64,000 nucleotides of DNA, taken from assembly GCA_963783675.1 (NCBI GenBank), contig CAWAOU010000027.1, forward strand, positions 13,221 to 77,220, in the 5' to 3' direction. Under the pieces are notes generated by a model. That model was not told the DNA's origin and did not search any database. It worked only from the letters and a program-made list of their open reading frames with translations. Position 1 is the first letter of the stretch. Each line of letters opens with the position of its first letter. Source of the stretch: an uncultured Gammaproteobacteria bacterium (GTDB lineage: Bacteria; Pseudomonadota; Gammaproteobacteria; Competibacterales; JAHEDQ01). Position numbers and translations under genes: made by a program. This document shows positions 5,253-63,627 of the stretch, in pieces.

Positions 5253-5375
5253 CGCGGTGTCGAAGGGGTAGGTATCGCGAGTGATTAGCGTCACCTAACC
5301 AGTGTCCCGCGGTCCAGCCCATGCCCCAGTCAATTGTTCAGCTCTTGCCTGAGACCAAGCAACACCAGTTGCCCG

Positions 5376-5419
5376 TTTCGGCCTCTAATCTGCTTCGTCC
5401 GGAGTAACTCAGAGGCTCC
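5376..5419. repeat. partial copy (one-end module) of the dispersed structured repeat family
   Basis: tttcggcctctaatctgcttcgtccggagtaactcagaggctcc aligns with the end of the copy at 15812-15969 (tttcacccttcgatctgcttcatccagaacagatcagaggctcc). Confidence 0.4.
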
Positions 5420-6235: not shown

Positions 6236-6508
6236 CCTAGTGTCCCGTCCCATAAGTTCGTAGCGTTTCAGAGCGCCCCAGATACACCAATGCAAGGCGC
6301 AGGTGCGAAGGCATAGCCAGCTCTGTCAAGCAGCTGCAACGCCGCAGTGGCGTATCTGGGGCGCTCCCGACGGGCAAGGCGATAAGCGCCCATTCGCGGT
6401 GTTGGGCGCGCTTGAATGAGCGCAGGCTAGTCCTGCGCCCGCCCGCCTAGCGCCTGGGCGCTTCTCGCCTTGCTGATATGCAACGAACTTGTGGGACGGG
6501 ACACTAGG
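6236..6508. repeat. 273-bp MITE-like / highly structured element with 25-bp terminal inverted repeats
   Basis: cctagtgtcccgtcccataagttcg (6236-6260) is the reverse complement of cgaacttgtgggacgggacactagg (6484-6508) with 1 mismatch. There is an internal perfect 15-bp inverted repeat (6271-6285 / 6352-6366) and further 7-bp hairpins. No ORF. Confidence 0.65.
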
Positions 6509-14140: not shown

Positions 14141-15070
14141 ATGCTGCCCGTGGTCAACGCGCTGGGGCCGGTAATCGTAATGACGATGATCGGCCTGGTG
14201 CTGCGCTGGCGCGGATTCCTCACCGCTAACGACCTGCACGCCACCACCCGCCTGGTTTACTGGGTCGGAATTCCCGCCCTGTTGTTCATCAAGGTGTCAA
14301 CGGCCCCCGCCTCCCTGGCCCAGACCTCGGCGTTGCTCACTGTATTGCTGCTGAGCACATTGATTGGGGTCGCCGTTGCCGGCTGGGTCGCCACCCTGCT
14401 TCGGATACCCTGGAGGGAAGTCGGCACCTTTGTGCAAGCGGTCTACCGGGGCAATCTTGCCTTCGTCGGGGTTCCGGTAGTGGCCTACGCCGCTGCCGAT
14501 CTTGGCCAGAATGACGCAGCCGGCATCGCCCTGTTGGCATTGGGCCCGATGGTCGTCCTATACAATGTGCTCGGGGTTCTGGTCCTATTGCTCAGCCGTG
14601 GGCGATTGAGCACACGCAACGCTTTGCCGATCGTCCGGGGCATGGCGCTCAACCCCCTGCTGTTATCCTGTGCGCTGGGGCTCCTTTACCGGTCGACCAA
14701 CTGGCCTATACCCACCGTTGTTCAGCGCTCCCTGGAAGCGATCGGGCAGATGGCACTGCCCCTGGCACTGATCTGCATAGGCGGAGCTCTGTACGGAACC
14801 CGGCTCAAAGCCGTGCTATCGCGCACCGTCGCGGCGGCGTTGGGCAAGACCCTGATGATGCCGCTACTCGGGTTGGGGCTGGGGCTGCTGCTGGCATTGG
14901 ACAACGACGCCATGCGCACGGTGCTGATCTTCATGGCCTGCCCAACCGCTGGTGCCTCTTACGTGATGGTGCGACAAATCGGCGGCGATGCGGATCTGGC
15001 CTCCAGCGCAGTCGTGGCCAGCACCCTCCTGGCGATACCGGTTCTGGCCCTCATCATCGCCCTGGTGTGA
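14141..15070 (+). CDS. AEC (auxin efflux carrier) family transporter
   Basis: Polytopic hydrophobic protein starting MLPVVNALGPVIVMTMIGLVL. ATG at 14141, just after the DAHPS stop. Confidence 0.8.
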   Translation: MLPVVNALGPVIVMTMIGLVLRWRGFLTANDLHATTRLVYWVGIPALLFIKVSTAPASLAQTSALLTVLLLSTLIGVAVAGWVATLLRIPWREVGTFVQAVYRGNLAFVGVPVVAYAAADLGQNDAAGIALLALGPMVVLYNVLGVLVLLLSRGRLSTRNALPIVRGMALNPLLLSCALGLLYRSTNWPIPTVVQRSLEAIGQMALPLALICIGGALYGTRLKAVLSRTVAAALGKTLMMPLLGLGLGLLLALDNDAMRTVLIFMACPTAGASYVMVRQIGGDADLASSAVVASTLLAIPVLALIIALV

Positions 15071-15101
15071 CCACCTCCCCAAATGCGGAGACAGAGTTTC
15101 C

Positions 15102-15800
15102 ATGACCCCGAAACGATTTCTGCGACTACGGCAAGTCCTGGACAAAAGGCAACCCGATCTGACGGTGCTCACCGATCAGGTGCATAAACCGCACAACCTT
15201 GCGGCCATCTTGAGGACCTGCGATGCGGTGGGCATCATGACTGCACACGTGGTGCTTGAGAACACGCCCTACCGGTCCCGCCCCGGGACGTCGCTGGGCA
15301 GTGAGCGCTGGGTGGCGGTGGAGCCCCAGACTCGGATCGAGCATGCAATCCGACACCTGCATGACAGCGGGCACCAAGTGCTTGCCGCTCATTTTTCGCA
15401 GCGGGCAGTGGATTTTCGATCCCTGGACTACACCCGTCCGACGGCGCTGCTCCTGGGTGCAGAGAAACACGGTGTCAGCCAAACCGCCGCAACAGAAGCC
15501 GACGCCCATATTGTGGTGCCCATGATGGGCATGGTCGCTTCCTTCAACGTCTCCGTGGCCGCTGCAATCGTGCTAGCCGAAGCCCAACGGCAACGACAGA
15601 ACGCGGGTATGTACGATCGGGTTCGACTCGAACCCGATCGCTATAACGCCACGCTTTTCCGCTGGGCGCACCCGGTACTGGCAGAGTACTGCGATCGGCA
15701 TCACCTGGCCTATCCAGAGCTGTCCGACGAGGGTGATATTCTGGACCTCGCAGCCTGGAGACAGCGCACTGGGCAGACAGCTCGCATCTGTCCTCAGTGA
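15102..15800 (+). CDS. trmH: tRNA (guanosine-2'-O)-methyltransferase, SpoU/TrmH family
   Basis: RQPDLTVLTDQVHKPHNLAAILRTCDAVG and the C-terminal SpoU motifs (LLLGAEKHGVS, PMMGMVASFNVSVAAAI). Confidence 0.85.
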   Translation: MTPKRFLRLRQVLDKRQPDLTVLTDQVHKPHNLAAILRTCDAVGIMTAHVVLENTPYRSRPGTSLGSERWVAVEPQTRIEHAIRHLHDSGHQVLAAHFSQRAVDFRSLDYTRPTALLLGAEKHGVSQTAATEADAHIVVPMMGMVASFNVSVAAAIVLAEAQRQRQNAGMYDRVRLEPDRYNATLFRWAHPVLAEYCDRHHLAYPELSDEGDILDLAAWRQRTGQTARICPQ

Positions 15801-15811
15801 GCCTCCGATCG

Positions 15812-15969
15812 ATTCATGAACGTGCATCTTGGGACTCAAATGCACAGCTTCATCGTTGCAGATCTTGGCAACAGAACAACGATCACCCGCGATCTGCCCC
15901 GCGATCCGCCTCTTGAATCTGCACATTTCACCCTTCGATCTGCTTCATCCAGAACAGATCAGAGGCTCC
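15812..15969 (-). repeat. dispersed structured intergenic repeat, copy A (158 bp)
   Basis: Aligns over its full length with 19546-19681 and 33473-33605 (opposite orientation). Contains an extra 12-bp tandem duplication (ccgcgatctgcc / ccgcgatccgcc). The strand given is the one on which stems show G.U rather than A.C pairs. Confidence 0.75.
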
Positions 15970-15984
15970 ATAGCCAGATTGGCG

Positions 15985-16605
15985 TCAACTGCCGAGGGTT
16001 GCGACCACCAGCAGGTTCTCGTACTGCCCAAGCACCTTGTCGGCATAGGGTGAACGCGGATTCCGATGACTGCCGTTGTATCGCAACAGCGCCTTGCGAA
16101 GGTTGCCGTCTTGTGCGTCCAGATACTCGGCCAGGATCCGGACGCCGGCCTGGATGTTTTTGTTCGGGTCAAACAGGGCGTTGGCCCCCCCGATCTCGGC
16201 AATCGTATCCGGATGCCATTTGGGAATGATCTGCATCAGCCCGCGGGCACCTGCATGGCTTACCACGCGGGGCCTGAACGTGGATTCAACTGCGATGACG
16301 GCCAACACCAGTTCCGGCGCAAGATCTCCAGCCGATCCCTGTCGAAAGGCTTCGGAAACAATGCGCCGAGCCTGATTTTTGTTGACCGGAAAACGGTTGG
16401 CGATGTGTTCGACAAGACGACCCATACGCCGGGTCTGCACCAACAGATCCTGAGTATAGCGAGAGTTCCACCACTGCTCAGAGGTTGGCGTATTGGATGA
16501 CACAGGTGCCGAAAATACGAGCATGGCCATGATCGTGACGGTGACCAGTACGTAGTTTTTTTTGGGCGCGGGTTTACCACCCCGTGATATTTCAACGAGA
16601 CGCAT
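15985..16605 (-). CDS. lytic transglycosylase (SLT domain)
   Basis: AVIAVESTFRPRVVSHAGARGLMQIIP catalytic motif. N-terminal membrane anchor/signal. Confidence 0.8.
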   Translation of the reverse strand: MRLVEISRGGKPAPKKNYVLVTVTIMAMLVFSAPVSSNTPTSEQWWNSRYTQDLLVQTRRMGRLVEHIANRFPVNKNQARRIVSEAFRQGSAGDLAPELVLAVIAVESTFRPRVVSHAGARGLMQIIPKWHPDTIAEIGGANALFDPNKNIQAGVRILAEYLDAQDGNLRKALLRYNGSHRNPRSPYADKVLGQYENLLVVATLGS

Positions 16606-16802
16606 GCTTTTTGCCTCCTGGACCCTCGTCGACCGGCGTCCTCATGCCAGTAAGACGTTGCCATCTTGGCCCGACCAAGCTGTTTGCTGACGGTGGGCGC
16701 GACGTGGTCTTCTAATTTTTAGGTATTATACTTGTGCAGCGCATCATAGGCAGACTGTCGCCAATCCGCAACAGTGTCCGTCTGCCTCTATTGAAGACCC
16801 AA

Positions 16803-17243
16803 TCAGCGCGTCAGTTCAAGTAAAAAATGACAGTGGGCAACCGCCACGGGGCGGGAGCGGTCGTCCTGCCAGGCCTCGACGGTCACGTTTGCAATCCGCC
16901 GACCCCGCTTGGTTATGGTGCCACTGGCATAGGTCGTCACCGGACCCGCAGGCCGCAAGAAATCGACCGTAATGTTGATGATCTTTGGGATCATCTGGGT
17001 CTCGTGCGCCCACACCAACTCCAAGATCGCAGTGGTTTCGAGAAAGGCACCGACCACCCCCCCGTGCAGCGCGGGCAGGGCGGGATTGCCTATATTGCGG
17101 GGCCGAAAGGCCAGTTGGGACACAAACTCACCGGTCTCTTCCGACACACTGATCCCGAGAAACCGCGCGTACGGGATCGCCTCGCAAAGAGGGTTGTAGT
17201 CATGCTCGGCGCGACAACGCTCCGCCAAAGCCACAAGATTCAC
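16803..17243 (-). CDS. PaaI family (hotdog-fold) thioesterase
   Basis: 146 aa. ALHGGVVGAFLETTAIL motif of PaaI/YbgC-type thioesterases. Confidence 0.7.
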   Translation of the reverse strand: MNLVALAERCRAEHDYNPLCEAIPYARFLGISVSEETGEFVSQLAFRPRNIGNPALPALHGGVVGAFLETTAILELVWAHETQMIPKIINITVDFLRPAGPVTTYASGTITKRGRRIANVTVEAWQDDRSRPVAVAHCHFLLELTR

Positions 17244-17710
17244 GACCTGCGCCTGTCGGCCGCCAATCCACCGCCTTCACCCTTGATCACAAAGGTGGCC
17301 TGGGCGGCCGCAACGGGTTCCGCCGGATCCTGGTGGTAGGCCGTGCTGCGAACGAATGCAATCTGGTGAGTCAGCCGGAAACAATCCGCCCGTGCATGCA
17401 GTGGTTGGCCGACCCGCGCCGGCTTCAGATAGTCAATGCGCAAATCCAGTGTGGCGATAGGCCCCGGATTGCGCATGGCGGACAGCACGGAGAGACCGCA
17501 CACCGAGTCAATCAAGACCGTAACCGCCCCACCATGCAGAACGCCGGTATCCGGATCGCCGACCAGGTCGCTGCGATAGGGCAAGCGCATGGTCGCATCG
17601 CCGCACCCGACCTCCACCAGTTCCATACCCAATTCGCGGATATGAGGAATATCTCCAAGATAGAAGCGTGCCAGATCCATGACGCTCGCGTCGGATTGTA
17701 TGGCTGTCAT
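17240..17710 (-). CDS. PaaI family (hotdog-fold) thioesterase
   Basis: 156 aa. VLHGGAVTVLIDSVCG motif. 4-nt overlap with the downstream paralogue. Confidence 0.7.
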   Translation of the reverse strand: MTAIQSDASVMDLARFYLGDIPHIRELGMELVEVGCGDATMRLPYRSDLVGDPDTGVLHGGAVTVLIDSVCGLSVLSAMRNPGPIATLDLRIDYLKPARVGQPLHARADCFRLTHQIAFVRSTAYHQDPAEPVAAAQATFVIKGEGGGLAADRRRS

Positions 17711-17900
17711 GATCTCGGTCTCTTAGAATCCAGAAGCAGCGACCATAGCGATACAAGCCACGTCTGTGCAAAAGTTTGCATCCCAGCCTCTCCCAGATTA
17801 AGGCCGGAGCGGCCACACCGCCCCTGGAACCTGCGGTCAGGCATGGTCCTGCCCAGTCTGCGGCACGGCCGGGTGCGACGAAGCCAATGAAGCGGACATC

Positions 17901-18461
17901 ATGACCGCCAGAATGCCGACCCGACAGGAACAGATCGTCTCCGTTCATGCGTCCCTGATCATCAGCGTGGTCCGGGGCCGGACCGATCCGATCGCCGCAC
18001 GCGAGGCGAAAGATCTGATCGCCAAAGTATCGCGCGGCGGTCAGACCGCGCTGGCCCGGATTCTGGGACGGATAGTCCAAAGCGCCCGGCCGGATGGCGC
18101 CGATGAGACTGCGCTGTCAGATGATGAGCGAGTGGTGCTCGATGCGGTGTTACAGGGCATCGACAATCCTACTGAGCTGCCGCAAGCCGTTGCCTCGTTC
18201 GACCCGGGCGCGGCCGCGCCCGGGCTCGCATGCATGATCGACGCAGCCGCTCGCGGCGACCCGCGAGCTTTGCATACACTGTCTGGAATGGCAGAGGTCA
18301 TGGTCCAGGTGGGCGGAGACATGGGCCGCTTGGGAGGTCTTATGCGGCGCCTGGTCAACGGTGAGCGGGACGCGGAACGCCTGACCCGCAACATGGGGGC
18401 ACAGGGCATATCCCTGGTCCACGCGATTTTGGATCAGCTCGCAACCCTGTCGGAGCATTGA
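17901..18461 (+). CDS. hypothetical protein
   Basis: 186-aa ORF with coding-like composition and no family recognised. Confidence 0.45.
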   Translation: MTARMPTRQEQIVSVHASLIISVVRGRTDPIAAREAKDLIAKVSRGGQTALARILGRIVQSARPDGADETALSDDERVVLDAVLQGIDNPTELPQAVASFDPGAAAPGLACMIDAAARGDPRALHTLSGMAEVMVQVGGDMGRLGGLMRRLVNGERDAERLTRNMGAQGISLVHAILDQLATLSEH

Positions 18462-18693
18462 AACCGGGAATGTTCCGGCCGGAAAGAGGTCGTATGAGGT
18501 AAGCTCACGAGCGCTGGAAACGACATTGGTGGCGCACCCGTTGACCTGTGTCATCGAGTCAGGCAGCGTTCGTGAGGTAGGGTATTGCAGATCCCGGGCG
18601 CATCGGCAACGGCGAGAGCGGCTGCCGATGTTCATCGGCGATAACTTCTAGAAGGGGCGACACGCCCTCAATCACTGGAGATAGAGAGAAACC

Positions 18694-19038
18694 ATGGCAA
18701 AACAAGACATCGATGTTGGCCGCCGCAAGGCGATGAAGATGGCCATCGCGGGCGCGGCTGCTATTCCAGTCGCCAGCTTGATTGGCGGCGGCGTCGCCTA
18801 CTCCCAGGATCTGCCACACGTTGCGGAAGATGATCCTGCCGCCGTTGGCCTGAAGTACATGCACGACGCCACCCAGGCGCCGCGGGCCGACAAAGCCGGC
18901 ACCGCAGCGGCTGATCAGCTCTGCAGCAATTGTCAATTCATCGCCGCCGACAGCGGAGAATGGCGCGGCTGCGCACTGTTCCCAGGCAAAGCGGTCAATG
19001 AAAACGGATGGTGTTCCGCCTGGGCGCCCAAGGCCTGA
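18694..19038 (+). CDS. high-potential iron-sulfur protein (HiPIP)
   Basis: Tat signal (GRRKAMKMAIAGAAA). C-terminal CSNCQF...WRGCALFPGKAVNENGWCSAWAPKA has the four HiPIP cluster cysteines. GGAGA Shine-Dalgarno upstream. Confidence 0.9.
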   Translation: MAKQDIDVGRRKAMKMAIAGAAAIPVASLIGGGVAYSQDLPHVAEDDPAAVGLKYMHDATQAPRADKAGTAAADQLCSNCQFIAADSGEWRGCALFPGKAVNENGWCSAWAPKA

Positions 19039-19058
19039 ACAGCGGGCCCAACTCAAGC

Positions 19059-19094
19059 CACCCGGTTCCCGAACAGCGGAACCGGGTGTTTTGT
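19059..19094. terminator. bidirectional intrinsic terminator between convergent HiPIP and yciA-like genes
   Basis: 11-bp stem cacccggttcc / ggaaccgggtg with an 8-nt loop, followed by ttttgt. Confidence 0.6.
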
Positions 19095-19102
19095 CGGCTT
19101 GG

Positions 19103-19492
19103 TCAGCGATCGATCTGGCGTGGTCTTCGATCGACGCCAATGGCCACGTAGGTGAAAACGCCCTCGGTCACCTTGGCACGTTCGGATTGGCGCTCTGCCC
19201 GAATGGCCCAGGCCTGGATTCGGATGCTCATGGACGTCGTGCCAACCCGCTCGAGGTGAGCGTAACAGCACACCACGTCCCCAACGAACACGGGTTTGTG
19301 AAATATCATCCCGTCCACAGCGATGGTGGCCACCCGGCCCGCGGCCCGCTGCTTGGCCAGGATGCCACCGGCAATATCCATTTGCGCCAGCAACCAGCCC
19401 CCAAAAATGTCTCCGCTCGGATTGGTATCCGCCGGCATGGCCAGGGTTCTCAGCGTCAATTCGCCGATCGGTTCATCCGACTCAGAATTCAT
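19103..19492 (-). CDS. acyl-CoA thioesterase (YciA-like hotdog)
   Basis: LRTLAMPADTNPSGDIFGGWLLAQMDIAGG motif. Start ATG 19492 preceded by GGAG at 7 nt. Confidence 0.8.
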   Translation of the reverse strand: MNSESDEPIGELTLRTLAMPADTNPSGDIFGGWLLAQMDIAGGILAKQRAAGRVATIAVDGMIFHKPVFVGDVVCCYAHLERVGTTSMSIRIQAWAIRAERQSERAKVTEGVFTYVAIGVDRRPRQIDR

Positions 19493-19545
19493 GCATTGGC
19501 TCCAAATAATCCTCACCCCGGGCTCCACGCCCTGGGGAGCCGCTG

Positions 19546-19681
19546 ATTTATTCTGGGCGAAGCAGATTGGAGTCTGAAATGTGCAGATTCAAGGCGCAGA
19601 TTGCGGGTAATAGTTGCTCTATTGCCAAAATTTGCAACGATGAAGCTGTGCATTTCAGTCCCAAGATGCACGTTCACGAAT
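19546..19681 (+). repeat. dispersed structured intergenic repeat, copy B (136 bp)
   Basis: Full-length alignment to copies A and C. 13-bp outer stem 19574-19586 / 19646-19658 with two G.U-type pairs. Confidence 0.75.
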
Positions 19682-19773
19682 AGATCAGCGGTTCCCTAGG
19701 GCTACCCTAAACAACTGATGGGTAAATACAAGCTCACACCGGCGCTGCCAGGGTCGAGACCGAGTACGCATTT

Positions 19774-21219
19774 GTGAGCACGCTTTCGAACCATGCGGGC
19801 TTGAGCGATCTGGCGGCCTGTTTGCGCCGCGAACCACGTGCCGTCTATGACATTCTGGATCACATACTGGAACAACGCGCCGATGCCACCGATCCGGTCT
19901 CGCCATACACAGACTGGAGCGCCGTGCGGCTCGTGGCGTCGGCAGAATCCATCCGACATGCACTGAAATGCGGGAACCAGATCGGCCCGTTAAGCGGATT
20001 ACCAGTATCCATCAAAGACTTGTATGGATTGCCCGGCCTACACACCTATGCTGGAACGCCCAGACGCCTGCCGCCACAGTGGGAGACGGCGGGACCCATC
20101 GTAGCAGCGCTGATCAAACAGGGGGCATTGATCAGCGGCAAGACGTTGAGTGGGGAGTTGGCGCTGGGCGGTCTTGGCCTCAATCCCCACTGGGGAACGC
20201 CGTCCAACCCCTGGTCAAGGTTTGGGCGGCGGGTCCCGGGTGGTTCCAGCAGCGGCGCCGGGGCCAGCGTCGTCGAGGGTACTGCCTGGGCCGCGCTGGG
20301 CACCGATACTGGCGGCTCGGTCCGTGTCCCGGCCAGTTATCATGGTTTGGTCGGTCTGAAACTGACATACGGCCGCTGGCCCATGACGGGGGTTGTGCCG
20401 TTGGCCTCGATGTTCGACTCACCCGGTTTGCTCACCCGCACCGTAGACGATGCGGCGTACCTGTTCGCGTCCATTGACGCGGCCTTGGCGGGAGGCATCC
20501 AAAAGGCCTCACCGGTAGACCCGAGACCACTGGCAGGCTTGCGCATTGGAATCGGCTCTCCTCGGCTATGGGACGATTGCGATGCCACTATCCTGACCGT
20601 GTGCAATGATTTTTTGACCCAGCTTGGCGCGCTTGGGGTGCGGCTTATCGACGTCGCCTTTCCCGAATCGGTCAATGCGGCGCAGCATACCCGGGAACAC
20701 AGTTTCGTTGCCGCCGAATGCGAACAGTTCGTGCGCCTGGAACTGCCGGAGCTACGCACCCATCTGAGCCCGGCGACACTTAACATCCTGGCGGAAGGCG
20801 CGACCCTGCGAGACCGGGAAGTGCTGGCGCGGCAACGTCGCTTTGGACATCTGCTTCAGCGGGGCGTGACGGTGTTCGATCAGGTCGACCTGGTGGCCTG
20901 TCCAACAGTCCCGATACCCAGCCCAACCCTTGCGGAGGTCCAGGATTACGATCGGTACCGCATCCTCAACAGCGCCGCCCTGCGCAACACCGTGATCGCA
21001 AACCTGCTGGGTCTTTGTGCCTTGACCCTGCCCGTCGGATTCGACCGATACGGCCTGCCGGTGGGCCTTCAGTTGATGGCGCCAGCGGGCGCGGAAGCAA
21101 AGTTGCTATCGGCGGCACTGGCCATTGAAAAACGACTTGGCACACCCCTTGAAACCCTCGGGCGGCCCTCACCGATCAGCGCCACGGAGCACGCCCCTGA
21201 AAACTCAGTCAGACTTTGA
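19774..21219 (+). CDS. amidase (amidase-signature family, GatA-like)
   Basis: 481 aa. GGSSSGAGASV amidase-signature motif and Ser-cisSer-Lys context. Confidence 0.85.
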   Translation: MSTLSNHAGLSDLAACLRREPRAVYDILDHILEQRADATDPVSPYTDWSAVRLVASAESIRHALKCGNQIGPLSGLPVSIKDLYGLPGLHTYAGTPRRLPPQWETAGPIVAALIKQGALISGKTLSGELALGGLGLNPHWGTPSNPWSRFGRRVPGGSSSGAGASVVEGTAWAALGTDTGGSVRVPASYHGLVGLKLTYGRWPMTGVVPLASMFDSPGLLTRTVDDAAYLFASIDAALAGGIQKASPVDPRPLAGLRIGIGSPRLWDDCDATILTVCNDFLTQLGALGVRLIDVAFPESVNAAQHTREHSFVAAECEQFVRLELPELRTHLSPATLNILAEGATLRDREVLARQRRFGHLLQRGVTVFDQVDLVACPTVPIPSPTLAEVQDYDRYRILNSAALRNTVIANLLGLCALTLPVGFDRYGLPVGLQLMAPAGAEAKLLSAALAIEKRLGTPLETLGRPSPISATEHAPENSVRL

Positions 21220-28902: not shown

Positions 28903-29164
28903 GCCCCATAATCTCGGACACACCGAAAAAAAATAACAAGAGGCCCAGCATGATTTGCATCCAGTGTAGTGTCCCATAGGTTCGCTGTGTCTCAGCAAGG
29001 CGAGGAGCGGGCAGGCGCATTCAAGCGCGCCCAACATCGTAATCACACAGCCGATGACAGTGGCTGCCGCAGATAGCTGAGGTGCGGTTTGAGGTGGATA
29101 TCTGAGTTGTATCCGGCTCGATCAACAACCTTCCATGGTCCACCGTTTCACCCTCGGACCGACC

Positions 29165-33368: not shown

Positions 33369-33472
33369 CTTGGCTCCCCCACCCTGTTTGTGGCGGCATT
33401 TGGCTGCACCAATCCGGCTGCAGCGATTTGCCGTCCCTGACCCCGAACTTTAGTGCAGCCGGCGCCATTAAG

Positions 33473-33605
33473 GGGCCTCTGGTTTGTTCTGGGTGAAGCA
33501 GATTGGAGGGTGAAATCTACAGATTCAAGGCGCAGATCGCGTGTGACCGTCGGTCCATTGTCAGGATTTGCGACGACGAAGCTGTGCATTTGAGTCCCAA
33601 GATGC
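33473..33605 (+). repeat. dispersed structured intergenic repeat, copy C (133 bp)
   Basis: Aligns with copies A and B. More diverged in the central part and carries a compensatory C-G pair where A and B have U-A in the inner stem. Confidence 0.7.
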
Positions 33606-33822
33606 CCCCCACCAGCGGATCGGACCTTATCTAAACGCCACGGTACGCCGATCGCGAGCGGAGCGGACAGCAAACTGCCGGACCCACCGATCAGCCGCGT
33701 ATTGAATCCAGGCAATATATCCAATAGCCATACGCTCATTTCTCATTATTCTTTTTTGATCTGATGCGACCGCTATACAGTGACTCATCGAAATCGGTCA
33801 GCCGGCGGGGGTGGTCCAGCGC

Positions 33823-42677: not shown

Positions 42678-43070
42678 GAGCAGCCAGCCAGTGTTCCGTC
42701 CCATTCCATAGACGAATCAGCAGATGCCCGACCGGTAGGCATGTTAAAATTGTGGTTAAGGAAGGTCTGAACGATTGCTTCGATCGCGCCGGCATCTTTC
42801 CGCTCCCTCGTACAAGGGCACTAAGTGTAGTTGGCCCAGGGCCGATAAGTGAGTTGCCAATGAGCGAGGTGCAACGCGGTACCAGGGGCGCAAAGGCCCG
42901 GCCCCTCCGGGGTTTCGCCCACAAGGGCACATCTGCCGCGTTTCCCGGCTTGGCCATAGAATGACTATGGCGCTGCGCCGGGAGCCTCGCATCTGCGCCC
43001 TTGTGGACCGAAACGCGATTCGTATCAATTGTTCAGACCTTCCCTAAACTACCAACGGGAAAGAAAGCAA

Positions 43071-49249: not shown

Positions 49250-49254
49250 GATAG

Positions 49255-49817
49255 GAGTATAAGACGAACAAACGCCCTTTTCCGAAAGTTGATCGTGTAT
49301 CCCCAAGTCATCAAACAGTCGCCAAACCGCTTTTCAGTTTGGTGTCGGCCGTGATCGGCCCTTCTGGGCCGGCAGAAGCGGCCAAGATCGAGTAGTTCAG
49401 CCAATTTCTTAACGAATTCCCCGCATCGGGCCGAACGCGATCAAAGCCACAACGCTCAGCGTCGCAGTCGGGGGGTGTTACCGGGTAGCCCGGTTCAGTC
49501 GTCGAACCGTCCCGCCTGGGGCGGCGCCCGACACGGCGGCCGCCTCGTGGCTTGGGGCTCAACCGCTTTCGCATCCAGGTGGCTGAGGATCTTGTCGATG
49601 ACCTCCGGCTGCTCGATGCAGGCGATAATCCGCACCGCCCCACCGCAGGCCCGGCAGGTCTCAACGTCGATACCGAACACCCGCTTCAGACGCTGCGCCC
49701 AGGTCATTGAGGCGCGGCGTTCGGCCGGCGTCGCCTCCTCCCCATCCCCCGTCGCAGCACGCTGGCCTCCCCTGCCACGCTTGGCCGGTGTCACCCGCGC
49801 GCGGTATTTGCTGTTCG
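49255..49817 (-). mobile_element. IS91-family 3' (oriIS-proximal) fragment, copy 1 (563 bp)
   Basis: Near-identical to 59213-59775 and 62901-63463. Encodes only the last about 108 aa of the transposase (NSKYRARVTPAKR...). Ends exactly after an internal GTTC (ctgttcg) at 49817. Confidence 0.85.
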
Positions 49818-58649: not shown

Positions 58650-59212
58650 GAAGGCGGTTGCTGCCAGAGCCGCACCTGACTATGCAATCAACTCGGCCTT
58701 GCTGAGGTGCCGAACCGATCTGTTCGCTCTGTCTCCGCTGGCATCCGAACGTTCACGAGGCGTGCCCGGGGCCTTGTTCGCGACGCGGACGCAAGCATCC
58801 GGGCGATCAACAGAGGGTTTGCCGGTGAATCTGGGAAAACCGAGGTCGGTCTGCCGGCGCCGCATCGATGAGAGCAGGCGGGCCTGACCGCGGTCGACGC
58901 GGCGAAGTCCCTGGTGTCACTTACGGTTGGGCTGCGTGTTCTGGCTCGCGGTACGTTCGATGCGGTGGGCTTGTTGGCAATAAAGAACAACATCCTGAGG
59001 CTGATCGGACATTAGAACGACGTTTGATGGCCCTGGTCCCGCGTGCAGTGGAATTGTGGGTGTATTCCCACCGCCCCGCTGTTGAGGCTACACAGTACGT
59101 ATGGCTGGTTTTCAGAGCCTCGTGATTCAGGGCTGTTCAGTGCCATAATCCATCTATGGAAGACCTCGGCATGGACGAGAACATGAACATCGCCTACGGT
59201 GCGGCCGTATCG

Positions 59213-60745
59213 GAGTATAAGACGAACAAACGCCCTTTTCCGAAAGTTGATCGTGTATCCCCAAGTCATCAAACAGTTGCCAAACCGCGTTTCAGTTTGG
59301 TGTCGGCCGTGATCGGCCCTTCTGGGCCGGCAGAAGCGGCCAAGATCGAGTAGTTCAGCCAATTTCTTAACGAATTCCCCGCATCGGGCCGAACGCGATC
59401 AAAGCCACAACGCTCAGCGTCGCAGTCGGGGGGTGTTACCGGGTAGCCCGGTTCAGTCGTCGAACCGTCCCGCCTGGGGCGGCGCCCGACACGGCGGCCG
59501 CCTCGTGGCTTGGGGCTCAACCGCTTTCGCATCCAGGTGGCTGAGGATCTTGTCGATGACCTCCGGCTGCTCGATGCAGGCGATAATCCGCACCGCCCCA
59601 CCGCAGGCCCGGCAGGTCTCAACGTCGATACCGAACACCCGCTTCAGACGCTGCGCCCAGGTCATTGAGGCGCGGCGTTCGGCCGGCGTCGCCTCCTCCC
59701 CATCCCCCGTCGCAGCACGCTGGCCTCCCCTGCCACGCTTGGCCGGTGTCACCCGCGCGCGGTATTTGCTGTTCGGCGCAAACACCCCGTGGAAACGGGT
59801 CAGATTGACTCTCGGTTTCGGCACCAAAGCGGCCAGCCGGGCAATGAAATCCAGCGGCTCGAACATCACATGCGTAGTACCGTCGCGGTACGGGGTCTTC
59901 AGCTGGTAACGAACGTTCCCATTCGCCGTGAGCGACAGGCGCTTTTCCGACACCGCCGGGCGGCTGATGTAGCGGCACAGCCGCTCCAGCTTCCCTCTTT
60001 CATCCGCTCTCGCCGCCACGCCCGCGTGCAGCGAGAAACCGGCCACCTTGCCCACCCCGTCATCGAACCGATCATCGCAGGCCGGCAGCGTCCGTAGCGT
60101 GAATACCTTGCGCCCCTGCTGCGGCCCGACAGCGATGCGGTAGGTGATCGACGAACCCAGGAGTTGATGCATAGGCCCGGCCTCGAAGTGGTCGCCGGCC
60201 AGATAGCAGTTCTCCGCATCGCGCTCCAGCAGCCCCTGCCGTTCGAGGTAGCGGCCGATACGCAGCGCCAGGGTCTGCGCCAGCCGGCTGAGTTCGGTGC
60301 TCGTCGGCGCCTTCACCCAGCGGAATCGGAGCGAGCCGTCCGAGCCCTCCACGTACACCCCATCGAGGAACAGCATGTGAAAGTGGATGTTCAGGTTCAG
60401 CGCGCTGCCGAAGCGCTGGATCAGCGTGACCGCGCCGCTCCGGGCCGTCTTGCAGGAAAAACCGGCCTTCTTGGTCAGGTGTGTGGCGATGCAACGGTAG
60501 ACGATGCCCAGCACCCGGCCCATAACAGCAGGGCGGCTGGCGAACAGGAAACGTAAGGGATACGGAACGCTCAACACCCACTGGCGCACCGGCTGCTCGG
60601 CAAACACCTCGTCCACCAGCAATGCCGCGCTCTCGGCCATGCGCCGGGCACCGCAGCTGGGACAAAAGCCCCGGCGTTTGCAACTGAACGCCACCCATTG
60701 ATCGCCATGGCAACTGTCGCAGCGCAGCACCACGTGCCCTGCAAA
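59213..60745 (-). mobile_element. IS91-family element, copy 2 (oriIS end intact, 5'/terIS side missing)
   Basis: Left boundary GAGTATAAGACGAAC is shared with copies 1 and 3. The right boundary is approximate, where the transposase frame merges with a truncated dehydrogenase gene. Confidence 0.8.
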
Positions 60746-60781
60746 GCTGGACGACTCCTGATCCAACGCCTCCGGAGGCAC
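59453..60781 (-). CDS. IS91-family (Y2/HUH rolling-circle) transposase, N-terminally truncated
   Basis: VLRCDSCHGDQWVAFSCKRRGFCPSCGARRMAESAALLVDEV zinc-binding region and the rest of the IS91-type core. The usual about 55 N-terminal residues preceding this motif are absent. Confidence 0.85.
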   Translation of the reverse strand: MPPEALDQESSSFAGHVVLRCDSCHGDQWVAFSCKRRGFCPSCGARRMAESAALLVDEVFAEQPVRQWVLSVPYPLRFLFASRPAVMGRVLGIVYRCIATHLTKKAGFSCKTARSGAVTLIQRFGSALNLNIHFHMLFLDGVYVEGSDGSLRFRWVKAPTSTELSRLAQTLALRIGRYLERQGLLERDAENCYLAGDHFEAGPMHQLLGSSITYRIAVGPQQGRKVFTLRTLPACDDRFDDGVGKVAGFSLHAGVAARADERGKLERLCRYISRPAVSEKRLSLTANGNVRYQLKTPYRDGTTHVMFEPLDFIARLAALVPKPRVNLTRFHGVFAPNSKYRARVTPAKRGRGGQRAATGDGEEATPAERRASMTWAQRLKRVFGIDVETCRACGGAVRIIACIEQPEVIDKILSHLDAKAVEPQATRRPPCRAPPQAGRFDD

Positions 60782-61403: not shown

Positions 61404-62312
61404 CTACCCCGTCTCCACGGACGGTTTTAAAATGGCTGAAAACTTCTGATCTTGTGCAGCAACTCTACGCCGCATTCTGGAATTGTGAAATCGCTCAATG
61501 TAGTCGAACACATCAGCCCTGGCTTCATTCCGGGTGCGGTACCGGCGATGGTGAATCCTTTCGCGTTTGAGTACCCCGAAGAATCCCTCACACGCGGCGT
61601 TGTCGCCGCAATGACCTACAGCACTCATACTGCTGATCAAAGTGTTCTGCCCCAGGAACCGCTGGTAGTCGCCGCTAGTGAATTGGCAGCCTCGATCGGA
61701 ATGTAAAATCACCTTTGTGGCCTCCTGGCGCTGCCAGATAGCCATCTCAACCGCTCGAATGACCATGTGCCGATCCTGTCGATGATGCATCGCCCAGCCA
61801 ATGACAAGCTTGCTGAACAGGTCGAGAACGACGCACAGAAACAGCTTCCCTTCTAATGTCTTGATCTCCGTGATGTCAGTGACCCATTTGCTTTCCGGCT
61901 CCAATGCCGTGAAGTCCCGGCGCAGATGATTCTCAACGCCCGCGGGACGCATACTGGAACCTTTCCAGCGCTTGGGCTTTTTCCGTGGCCAGCCTTGTAT
62001 GTTGTGAGATGCCATCAGGCGTGCAACACGGTTCAAACTGGCTGTCTCACCCTCGGCAGCCAAATCCTCGTGCATACGCGGCGCACCAATTACGCCACCA
62101 CTGTCGTCGTGGATCTCGCGTATGCGTACCAGCAGACGCGCATTGTCCGATTCACGAGGACTCGGCTTGCGTGATACCCAAGCGTAATACCCGCTGGATG
62201 AAACATTCAGGCAGCGGCACATAAGACGAACAGGAAAATCATCGCGACAACGTTGGATCGCCTGATACCTCAGGACGATTCCTTCGCAAAGAACGTTGCC
62301 GCTTCGCGTAAA
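61404..62312 (-). CDS. IS3-family transposase OrfB (DDE), expressed by -1 frameshift from OrfA
   Basis: [30 protein letters not shown]...[10 protein letters not shown]...[16 protein letters not shown]. The -1 frame is open back to a T TTT TTA heptamer at 62309-62315. The ORF-track ATG is at 62222. Confidence 0.85.
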
Positions 62313-62900: not shown

Positions 62901-63627
62901 GAGTATAAGACGAACAAACGCCCTTTTCCGAAAGTTGATCGTGTATCCCCAAGTCATCAAACAGTCGCCAAACCGCTTTTCAGTTTGGTGTCGGCCGTGA
63001 TCGGCCCTTCTGGGCCGGCAGAAGCGGCCAAGATCGAGTAGTTCAGCCAATTTCTTAACGAATTCCCCGCATCGGGCCGAACGCGATCAAAGCCGCAACG
63101 CTCAGCGTCGCAGTCGGGGGGTGTTACCGGGTAGCCCGGTTCAGTCGTCGAACCGTCCCGCCTGGGGCGGCGCCCGACACGGCGGCCGCCTCGTGGCTTG
63201 GGGCTCAACCGCTTTCGCATCCAGGTGGCTGAGGATCTTGTCGATGACCTCCGGCTGCTCGATGCAGGCGATAATCCGCACCGCCCCACCGCAGGCCCGG
63301 CAGGTCTCAACGTCGATACCGAACACCCGCTTCAGACGCTGCGCCCAGGTCATTGAGGCGCGGCGTTCGGCCGGCGTCGCCTCCTCCCCATCCCCCGTCG
63401 CAGCACGCTGGCCTCCCCTGCCACGCTTGGCCGGTGTCACCCGCGCGCGGGATTTGCTGTTCGGCGCAAACACCCCGTGGAAACGGGTCAGATTGACTCT
63501 CGGTCTGGGCACCAGGGCCGCCAGCCGGGCAATGAAATCGAGGGGTTCAAAGATGACGTGCGTCGTACCGTCGCGGTACGGGGTCTTCAGCTGGTAACGA
63601 ACGTTCCCATTCGCGGTGAGCGACAGG
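62901..63627 (-). mobile_element. IS91-family 3' fragment, copy 3 (727 bp, mosaic)
   Basis: 62901-63450 is near-identical to copies 1 and 2. 63451-63627 aligns with copy 2 with about 15 substitutions, mostly silent in the transposase frame. Homology ends at 63627. Confidence 0.8.

What the first reader, a model, noticed from the sequence alone, without database searches (positions are those of the whole stretch)
15812..15969. Undescribed-looking dispersed structured repeat family, copy A (with 12-bp internal duplication)
A non-coding element of about 135-158 bp occurs three times in this window (15812-15969, 19546-19681, 33473-33605), with a partial fourth copy at 5376-5419, always in intergenic DNA. 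The consensus in the orientation of copies B and C runs GGAGCCnCTGAT..TTCTGG..GAAGCAGAT.G.AG..TGAAATGTGCAGATTCAAGG...GCAACGATGAAGCTGTGCATTT.AGTCCCAAGATGCACGTTCA.GAAT. Copy A lies 16 bp downstream of the stop of the minus-strand SLT gene and carries an extra tandem 12-mer (ccgcgatctgcc / ccgcgatccgcc). The central part is variable and the arms are conserved. Translations differ by non-synonymous changes, so it is not a gene. Candidates are an sRNA family, a REP/MITE-type mobile repeat, or a protein-binding scaffold.
Basis: seen in the sequence. Interest (0 to 1): 0.7.

Follow-up and report, generated by a model that had tools for sequence, protein, structure and literature searches.

The report
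IS5-type miniature transposon (MITE) family
The repeated 160-base element is real, but it is a small non-coding "hitch-hiker" transposon (a MITE) that is moved by an IS5-type transposase: a new family of a well-known kind, not a new RNA gene.

Summary
Three full copies and one fragment of a ~160-nt element lie in the window.

The element is a long imperfect palindrome with three MITE hallmarks:
- It ends in 18-nt terminal inverted repeats, GGAGCCTCTGATYTATTC.
- It is flanked on both sides by a 4-nt Y-T-A-R duplication, the known IS5 target.
- Copy B is missing, exactly at the repeat ends, from two nearly identical metagenome contigs, so an empty site exists.

The same 18-nt ends bound two full-length 1.2-kb IS5-family insertion sequences and several unrelated short elements in metagenomes.

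Twenty-four more copies were found, all in one Competibacteraceae MAG among 185,579 species genomes. There was no match in Rfam, in viral contigs or in plasmids.

The RNA hairpin is much more stable on one strand: the consensus has 6 G·U pairs and no A·C pairs. Copies next to gene ends are mostly co-oriented with the gene (12 against 3). However, substitutions since insertion show no strand bias (66 G·U against 60 A·C), so no RNA function is demonstrated.

Verdict: a new member of a known kind, of low interest.

The parts
15798..15969 (-). Copy A, full-length MITE (172 nt), lying between the convergent SpoU-methylase and SLT genes. In element orientation its termini are GGAGCCTCTGATCTGTTC ... 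GAATCGATCGGAGGCTCA.
   Evidence: nhmmer 180 bits; alignments; sequence; flanking genes by Pfam.
15887..15910 (.). Tandem 12-nt duplication inside copy A (ccgcgatctgcc / ccgcgatccgcc). It is private to this copy and lies at an internally reiterated GCAGATY motif.
   Evidence: 12-column insertion relative to 25 other copies; sequence.
15794..15797 (.). Flanking tetranucleotide of copy A (TCAG on +, CTGA in element orientation). It is a decayed YTAR target-site duplication.
   Evidence: Flank table.
15970..15973 (.). Flanking tetranucleotide of copy A (ATAG on +, CTAT in element orientation). It is a decayed YTAR target-site duplication.
   Evidence: Flank table.
19536..19695 (+). Copy B, full-length MITE (160 nt). 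It sits in the divergent region between a 4HBT thioesterase gene (-) and an amidase gene (+). Its presence varies within the population.
   Evidence: nhmmer 185 bits; RNA fold -101 kcal/mol, z -12.7; absent from L023 and L026 at exactly these ends; gene calls.
19532..19535 (.). Left target-site duplication of copy B (CTGG).
   Evidence: The empty allele has a single CGAG here.
19696..19699 (.). Right target-site duplication of copy B (CTAG).
33472..33630 (+). Copy C, an older MITE copy with a degenerate 3' terminal repeat, flanked by TTAA (33468-33471) and CTAA (33631-33634). It lies between the divergent CBS-domain and sulfite/nitrite-reductase genes and is present in all 10 population contigs examined.
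   Evidence: nhmmer 171 bits; alignments; present in L072-L081; genes.
5370..5419 (-). Fragment D: only the 5' terminal repeat and 5' arm (GGAGCCTCTGAGTTACTCCGGACGAAGCAGATTAGAGG...). It is a truncated relic.
   Evidence: the repeat finder D5/I5; pattern match with 3 mismatches; nhmmer model positions 3-55, E 3e-7.

Best explanation

It is about 160 bp long and encodes nothing. It carries 18-bp terminal inverted repeats (GGAGCCTCTGATYTATTC) that an IS5-type DDE transposase, supplied in trans, would recognise. That transposase would insert it at 5'-YTAR-3' sites and duplicate those four bases.

YTAR is about four times rarer inside genes of this 60% G+C genome than between them, and it contains the stop codons TAA and TAG. 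Surviving copies therefore pile up between genes, often exactly on a stop codon that the duplication regenerates.

What is shown:
- the repeat family;
- the terminal repeats;
- the YTAR duplication;
- presence/absence polymorphism of copy B;
- identity of the ends with those of complete IS5-family elements.

What is inferred:
- that an IS5-type enzyme in this organism moves it (no partner was found in the DNA held);
- that, when co-transcribed, its roughly 65-bp hairpin may affect the stability of neighbouring mRNAs, as reported for ERIC and Correia elements.
For: 1. Structure. The whole element is one long imperfect palindrome. The RNA fold of copy B is -101.2 kcal/mol, z = -12.7. Across 26 copies, 65 pairs are 90% paired.

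2. Ends. In all 24 full copies from the window and the MAG, the termini are GGAGCC...GGCTCC.

3. Target duplication.
- The four bases just outside each end read Y-T-A-R on both sides, and composition is random beyond them.
- Direct left/right agreement is 56 of 96 bases against 44.2 in permutations, p = 0.0012.
- Non-palindromic cases are direct, not inverted: TTAG/TTAG in L014a and L008b, and CAAG/CAAG in L016; TTAG/TTAG in L047.
- IS5 makes a 5'-YTAR-3' duplication (PMC5009759).

4. Empty site. L023 and L026 are 99.8% identical to the window. They read ...CCACACCCGAGGGCTACCC..., where the window has ...CCCTGG[160-nt element]CTAGGGCTACCC....

5. Autonomous relatives.
- The same 18-mer bounds a 1193-bp element in L060. 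It encodes a 320-aa IS5-family transposase (NF033581, 330.9 bits against a cutoff of 140; PF01609).
- The same 18-mer forms the left end of a 1165-bp element in L033, which has CTAG/CTAG flanks; its right end is more diverged (5 of 18 positions differ).
- An annotated IS5-family element on a Rhodanobacter plasmid has ends GGATGCTCTGATTTATTC, matching 16 of 18 positions, and CTAA/CTAA flanks.

6. Other short elements with unrelated interiors share the ends and the YTAR flanks (L038, L069, L051, L063, L047).

7. Multicopy and lineage-restricted. The core 20-mer gave 21 exact matches, all in one Competibacteraceae MAG, among the genomes of 185,579 species.

8. No match in Rfam, in viral contigs for the 18-mer, or in plasmids for the element.
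Against: - No IS5-family transposase with these ends was found in the window or in the 160 kb of the MAG that I hold. Current mobility in this organism is inferred only from the polymorphism of copy B.
- The three versions of the copy B target differ from one another: CGAG (empty), CTGG (left) and CTAG (right).
- The L060 insertion sequence has TTAG/CTAA flanks rather than a perfect direct repeat. A 2-bp TA duplication with palindromic G...C ends is therefore not formally excluded for every copy.
- The marked strand asymmetry of the hairpin (6 consensus G·U pairs, no A·C pairs) is not something a pure DNA transposon needs.
Confidence: 0.93

Rival explanations
1. A family of small-RNA genes or cis-acting structured RNAs, selected for a strand-specific hairpin and only secondarily repeated.
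For: - The forward strand folds better in 24 of 24 copies (mean -75 against -57 kcal/mol). The same holds for diverged relatives from other metagenomes.
- The consensus has 6 G·U pairs and no A·C pairs.
- Nineteen pairs show changes on both sides against 7.6±2.2 in shuffles.
- Copies within 30 nt of a gene's stop codon are co-oriented with that gene in 12 cases and opposed in 3.
Against: - Terminal repeats, target duplication and the empty site already explain the dispersal.
- No promoter-like site was found in 15600-19900, and no terminator-like site in or beside copies A or B. There is no Rfam match.
- Copies lie after genes, before genes, and between convergent or divergent genes.
- Substitutions since insertion give 66 G·U against 60 A·C cells, so individual copies decay without regard to RNA pairing.
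- The 24-of-24 asymmetry is inherited from one master copy and is not independent evidence.
- Most of the double changes come from two diverged sequences.
Confidence: 0.04
2. A MITE of the IS630/Tc1-mariner type (like Correia, RUP or ERIC) that duplicates only TA, with element ends GGGAGCC...GGCTCCC.
For: - T and A are the most conserved flank positions.
- The L060 insertion sequence reads ...TTAGGGAAGC...GGCTCCCTAA..., which fits TA/TA better than a 4-bp direct repeat.
- An IS630-family (DDE_3) transposase gene lies next to the L012 copy.
Against: - The position next to the end is G in 13 copies and A in 10. The outermost position is T in 12 and C in 11. That is target-like variation, unlike the conserved terminal repeat.
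- Direct agreement peaks at 4 nt (p = 0.0012) and is absent at 2 nt (p = 0.78).
- Non-palindromic flanks are direct: TTAG/TTAG three times, CAAG/CAAG once, and CTGA/CTAA twice after adjusting for indels at the 3' ends of L015 and L005.
- The complete elements that share the ends encode IS5-family (DDE_Tnp_1) transposases, not IS630-family (DDE_3) ones.
- The IS630-type gene in L012 truncates the MITE rather than bounding it.
Confidence: 0.02
3. A REP/BIME-like extragenic palindrome spread by a RAYT (Y1) transposase, or a protein-binding scaffold (for example for IHF or gyrase) conserved for a DNA-level function.
For: - It is palindromic, largely intergenic and multicopy.
- The motif GCAGATY recurs three times in the 5' arm, which could be a binding site (sequence).
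Against: - From my background knowledge, REPs are 20-40 nt, carry a conserved 5' GTAG and make no target duplication.
- This element is 160 nt, has IS5-type ends and a YTAR duplication.
- Copy B is dispensable in sister strains.
- Binding of a host protein was not tested.
Confidence: 0.01

Closest known systems
IS5-group insertion sequences of the IS5 family (E. coli IS5; annotated relatives such as ISPst7 and ISPssy; the unnamed IS5-family element on Rhodanobacter denitrificans plasmid NZ_CP088981.1)
   Same: - The terminal repeat is of the GGA-NN-CTCTGA... type. It matches the Rhodanobacter element at 16 of 18 positions. It is identical to one end of each of the metagenomic elements in L060 and L033.
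- Both make a 4-bp YTAR target duplication.
   Different: The MITE is 160 bp instead of about 1.2 kb, has no transposase gene, and has an interior unrelated to the insertion sequences. That interior forms one long hairpin.
Bacterial MITEs derived from IS5-family elements (P. gingivalis BrickBuilt, MITE293 and MITE700; Neisseria ATR from ISNme1; PMC4596501)
   Same: These are also short non-coding elements whose terminal repeats match those of IS5-family insertion sequences.
   Different: The IS5 subgroup, the terminal repeat sequence and the hosts differ. The present family has a clear 4-bp YTAR duplication and a nearly complete internal palindrome.
ERIC/IRU and Correia/NEMIS elements (PMC2229807)
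   Same: - They are of similar size (about 100-200 bp) and their transcripts fold into one long 5'-end/3'-end stem-loop.
- They are mostly intergenic and co-transcribed with neighbouring genes.
- Orientation-dependent effects on mRNA stability (ERIC) and RNase III processing (Correia) have been reported.
- The strand asymmetry and the 12-to-3 co-orientation seen here resemble that picture.
   Different: Those elements have TA at their termini and different repeats. No sequence similarity is apparent and Rfam gives no match. No transcript data exist for the present family, so any similarity in how it works is only a hypothesis.

Membership tests
[quoted passage not shown] | Short (50-1000 bp), multicopy, no transposase gene | tested here: met
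   154-172 nt. There are 3 full copies and a fragment in 64 kb, plus 21 full and 2 partial copies in the loci from one MAG. The element has no gene-sized ORF of its own, and copy B is dispensable.
[quoted passage not shown] | Terminal inverted repeats | tested here: met
   The 18-nt repeat GGAGCCTCTGATYTATTC is present at both ends.
[quoted passage not shown] | Target-site duplication | tested here: met
   YTAR flanks on both sides. Direct 4-nt agreement is 56 of 96 against 44.2 expected, p = 0.0012.
[quoted passage not shown] | Evidence of mobility (insertion polymorphism) | tested here: met
   Copy B is absent from L023 and L026 precisely at the repeat ends, while the flanks are about 99.8% identical.
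IS5 family, IS5 group (as the mobilising partner) | Ends shared with a full-length element that encodes an IS5-family DDE transposase | tested here: met
   L060 (1193 bp; NF033581 330.9 bits; PF01609), L033 (1165 bp) and L085 (annotated IS5 family, 16 of 18 positions identical).
IS5 family, IS5 group (as the mobilising partner) | 4-bp duplication of a YTAR target | tested here: met
   for the MITE. L033 has CTAG/CTAG and L085 has CTAA/CTAA. IS5 itself: PMC5009759.
IS5 family, IS5 group (as the mobilising partner) | A partner transposase present in the same genome | tested here: inconclusive
   None in the 64-kb window or in the 160 kb of MAG loci. The rest of either genome could not be searched.
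Rfam RNA families (sRNA or cis-regulatory) | Match to a curated covariance model | tested here: not met
   No hits at gathering score for the whole window. Nothing relevant at E≤10 across copies A and B.
REP/BIME elements | 20-40-nt palindrome with a conserved GTAG, no target duplication, an associated RAYT gene (from my background knowledge) | tested here: not met
   The element is 160 nt, has IS5-type ends and a 4-bp duplication. No RAYT gene was looked for beyond the ORFs scanned.
ERIC / Correia-type elements | TA at the termini and family-specific terminal repeats (PMC2229807, Table 1) | tested here: not met
   The ends are GGAGCC...GGCTCC, and the duplication is 4-nt YTAR.
ERIC / Correia-type elements | Co-transcription and RNA-level processing that affects neighbouring mRNAs | not testable with these tools
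   No expression data. Only indirect hints exist: strand asymmetry and co-orientation of 12 to 3.

The most novel reading that the evidence does not exclude
This MITE family may have been taken over by the host as an orientation-dependent 3'-UTR RNA element. On this reading, its G·U-rich hairpin of about 65 bp forms only on the strand co-oriented with the upstream gene. It would then act as an mRNA 3'-end stabiliser or an RNase III site, giving the bacterium a mobile way to tune expression. This would be an ERIC-like role arising independently from an IS5-type element in an uncultured gammaproteobacterial lineage.
Probability: 0.12. Interest if true: 0.4.

Novelty: new member of a known kind. 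Interest (0 to 1): 0.2.

Why it matters
Mostly for annotation.
- These 160-nt palindromes, and at least two other MITE families in the same window, break metagenome assemblies.
- They can be mistaken for sRNA genes.
- They create or replace stop codons at gene ends, as with the SpoU gene here.
- Presence or absence of copy B in front of the thioesterase and amidase genes is a ready-made strain marker and a possible source of differences in expression.
- The 18-nt end shared by many unrelated short elements across environments shows that one IS5 subgroup feeds a broad set of MITEs.

None of this changes what is known about how such elements work.

Tried and rejected
- Rfam at gathering score over the whole window, and at E≤10 over 15600-20000, gave nothing relevant.
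- The 18-mer has no match in viral contigs.
- blastn of copy B against 72,556 plasmids gave no match.
- A text search for the terminal repeat found only unrelated primer sequences. No paper holds both 'Competibacter' and 'miniature inverted-repeat'.
- I looked for a partner insertion sequence in the DNA held. No extra repeat-like site with ≤5 mismatches lies outside known copies, and tblastn with the L060 transposase hits neither the window nor the MAG loci.
- I wondered whether the window's large repeat (three copies of 560-730 nt) was the partner. It is the 3' end of IS91-family (Y2_Tnp) elements, which is unrelated.
- Enrichment at stop codons as a special targeting mechanism is rejected. 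About 16% of YTAR sites outside gene interiors contain a stop codon, so 7 of 24 insertions there is close to expectation.
- RNA-level selection on individual copies is rejected on the G·U against A·C count of 66 to 60.
- Promoter and terminator scans over copies A and B found nothing in or next to the element.
- I could not name the window's organism. Exact-sequence look-up shows only that its proteins occur in NCBI assembly GCA_942492415.1 and in several ENA and JGI metagenomes.

Full report
**1. Observation**

The sequence at 15812-15969 belongs to a real dispersed repeat. A 20-base core from the 3' arm (GCTGTGCATTTNAGTCCCAAG) occurs three times in the window (15828-15848 -, 19645-19665 +, 33581-33601 +) against 0.01 expected. 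A 5'-arm pattern occurs four times, including the fragment at 5375-5396, against 0.00 expected. The repeat finder and a self-BLAST give pairwise identities of 78-86%. The 12-nt tandem duplication in copy A is a private 12-column insertion relative to 25 other copies.

**2. True anatomy**

A profile built from the three copies also matched its own reverse strand. This shows that the element is one long imperfect palindrome. Aligning all copies with their flanks shows termini GGAGCCTCTGATYTATTC...GAATAGATCAGAGGCTCC.

The corrected coordinates are:

| Copy | Coordinates | Strand | Length / note |
|---|---|---|---|
| A | 15798-15969 | - | 172 nt |
| B | 19536-19695 | + | 160 nt |
| C | 33472-33630 | + | 3' end decayed |
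| D (fragment) | 5370-5419 | - | 5' arm only |

Copy B as RNA folds into a single hairpin of -101.2 kcal/mol (z = -12.7).

**3. Distribution**

I scanned one genome from each of 185,579 species for the exact 20-mer. It gave 21 matches on 20 contigs, all in one MAG, Candidatus Competibacteraceae bacterium Ww208. The profile search over these loci found 21 full-length and 2 partial copies.

The window itself is not syntenic with those loci. It does share two further repeat families with them.

The element has no Rfam match and no plasmid match. Its 18-nt end has no match in viral contigs.

**4. Target-site duplication**

Immediately outside GGAGCC...GGCTCC, both flanks read Y-T-A-R:
- Left flank, counts per position: T12/C11, T19, A14, G13/A10.
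- Right flank, counts per position: C13/T9, T16, A15, G15/A5.
- Composition is unremarkable beyond 4 nt.

Left/right direct agreement peaks at 4 nt: 56 of 96 bases against 44.2±3.8 in permutations, p = 0.0012. Non-palindromic pairs are direct rather than inverted (TTAG/TTAG, CAAG/CAAG, CTGA/CTAA). 5'-YTAR-3' is the documented duplication made by IS5 (PMC5009759).

**5. Mobility**

Contigs carrying the identical SLT protein come from the same population and are 99.8-99.98% identical to the window.
- L021, L022 and L024 carry copy B.
- L023 (ENA ERZ27251198) and L026 (Logan ERR15966672) do not. They read ...CCACACCCGAGGGCTACCCTAAAC..., where the window reads ...CCACGCCCTGG[160 nt]CTAGGGCTACCCTAAAC....

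The break falls exactly at the terminal repeats, and one tetranucleotide becomes two. Copy A is present in all five of these contigs that reach it, and copy C in all ten contigs examined for it. That fits C's decayed 3' end and greater age.

**6. The partner family**

I scanned metagenome contigs for the 18-nt end while excluding the MITE's own interior. This gave 45 loci.
- L060 holds a 1193-bp element. It is bounded by GGAAGCTCTGATCTATTA... and ...GAATAGATCAGAGGCTCC. It encodes a 320-aa protein that scores 330.9 bits (cutoff 140) on NCBIfam transpos_IS5_4 and matches Pfam DDE_Tnp_1.
- L033 holds a 1165-bp relative. Its transposase is 54-56% identical, and it has CTAG/CTAG flanks.
- Annotated IS5-family elements on plasmids are 54-59% identical at protein level.
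- The Rhodanobacter denitrificans element has ends GGATGCTCTGATTTATTC / GGATGCTCTGATCAATGA and CTAA/CTAA flanks.
- Several other short elements (89-290 nt) with unrelated interiors carry the same ends and YTAR flanks.
- Three loci (L054, L040, L068) hold diverged members of the present family.

No IS5-type transposase or extra repeat-like site occurs in the window or the MAG loci. A partner in this organism is therefore inferred, not shown.

**7. Where it sits**

By an ORF and GC3 heuristic, copies lie after genes, before genes, and between convergent or divergent genes. In 7 of 24 copies the stop codon of a gene is the last three bases of the left duplication. Five of these genes were confirmed by Pfam: ETF-alpha, Slt, an ABC permease, pyruvate kinase and AhpC.

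This needs no special mechanism. YTAR occurs at 1.0 per kb in coding DNA against 3.9 per kb in intergenic DNA. About 16% of YTAR sites outside gene interiors contain a stop codon.

**8. Is there an RNA-level function?**

Hints in favour:
- Every copy folds better on the strand of copies B and C (mean -75 against -57 kcal/mol). So do the diverged relatives.
- The consensus has 6 G·U pairs and no A·C pairs.
- Nineteen of 65 pairs show changes on both sides against 7.6±2.2 in shuffles, and 8-15 in slid controls.
- Genes whose stop codon lies within 30 nt of a copy are co-oriented with the element 12 times and opposed 3 times (my count).

Evidence against:
- The asymmetry is inherited from one master copy.
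- Substitutions that arose after insertion in Watson-Crick pairs give 66 G·U against 60 A·C cells. Copies therefore decay without regard to RNA pairing.
- No promoter-like or terminator-like site lies in or beside copies A or B.

I therefore treat an ERIC- or Correia-like effect on neighbouring mRNAs (PMC2229807) as a possibility, not a finding.

**9. Comparison and verdict**

All four defining MITE features were tested and met. Two of the three features tying it to the IS5 group were met. The third, a partner in the same genome, is inconclusive.

It is not a REP, not an ERIC or Correia member, and not a known Rfam family. IS5-family-derived MITEs are already described in other bacteria (PMC4596501). 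It is of low general interest.

Noticed in passing
window 6241-6503 (partial relative at 28963-29039); L014 1825-2096: A second MITE-like family of about 263 nt, with terminal repeats TGTCCCGTCCCATAAGTTCG and CTAG/CTAG flanks. It is 86% identical to a copy in the Competibacteraceae MAG, where it lies directly beside copy L014b of the family studied here.
   Followed up: partly
window 42760-43043; L017 69-351: A third MITE-like family of about 284 nt, with IS5-type terminal repeats GGAAGGTCTGAACGATTGC / GGAAGGTCTGAACAATTGA and TTAA/CTAA flanks. It is 84% identical to a copy in the MAG.
   Followed up: partly
window 49251-49817, 59209-59939, 62901-63627: Three 97.5-99.6% identical copies of the 3' end and downstream region of an IS91-family (Y2_Tnp plus Zn_Tnp_IS91) element. 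Only the copy at 59453-60781 (-) has an intact 442-aa ORF. An IS3-type integrase-core ORF lies at 61404-62222 (-).
   Followed up: partly
window 15795-15800: The stop codon TGA of the SpoU-methylase ORF (14988-15800) is made of the last three bases of copy A, whose terminal base differs from the consensus (GGCTCA instead of GGCTCC). By my reading of the sequence, without that change the frame would read on through the rest of the element.
   Followed up: partly
window 19492-19774: The polymorphic copy B lies in the shared upstream region of a divergent gene pair, a 4HBT thioesterase (-) and an amidase (+). Strains with and without it may express these genes differently. The 50 nt to the left of the insertion also carry several SNPs between filled and empty alleles.
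   Followed up: no
L012 473-1113: The MITE copy in L012 has lost its 3' terminal repeat where an IS630-family (DDE_3) transposase ORF abuts it. One mobile element has inserted into the other.
   Followed up: partly
L005 79-250 and L007 90-262: Two MAG copies share an 8-nt insertion in the 3' terminal repeat (ATCAGA-TGGCATGG-ACTCC), which marks a subfamily. Both lie within about 100 nt of contig ends, showing that these repeats break the assembly.
   Followed up: partly
L038 973-1262, L069 766-1055, L051 4865-5134, L063 1619-1773, L050 8351-8460, L047 2343-2431: Soil, sediment and water metagenomes hold several unrelated short elements (89-290 nt). All are bounded by the same 18-nt IS5-type end, mostly with CTAG or other YTAR-like flanks. 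One IS5 subgroup seems to feed many MITE families.
   Followed up: partly
Element consensus; window 19559-19605: The motif GCAGATY recurs three times in the 5' arm (GAAGCAGATTGG, GTGCAGATTCAA, GCGCAGATYGCG), with imperfect mirror images in the 3' arm. The 12-nt duplication in copy A adds a fourth. It could be a set of subterminal binding sites or a trace of slippage.
   Followed up: no
window 19059-19088 (+): A strong terminator-like hairpin (11 pairs, 8 of them G-C, followed by TTTTGT) lies just downstream of the HiPIP gene (18694-19038 +).
   Followed up: no
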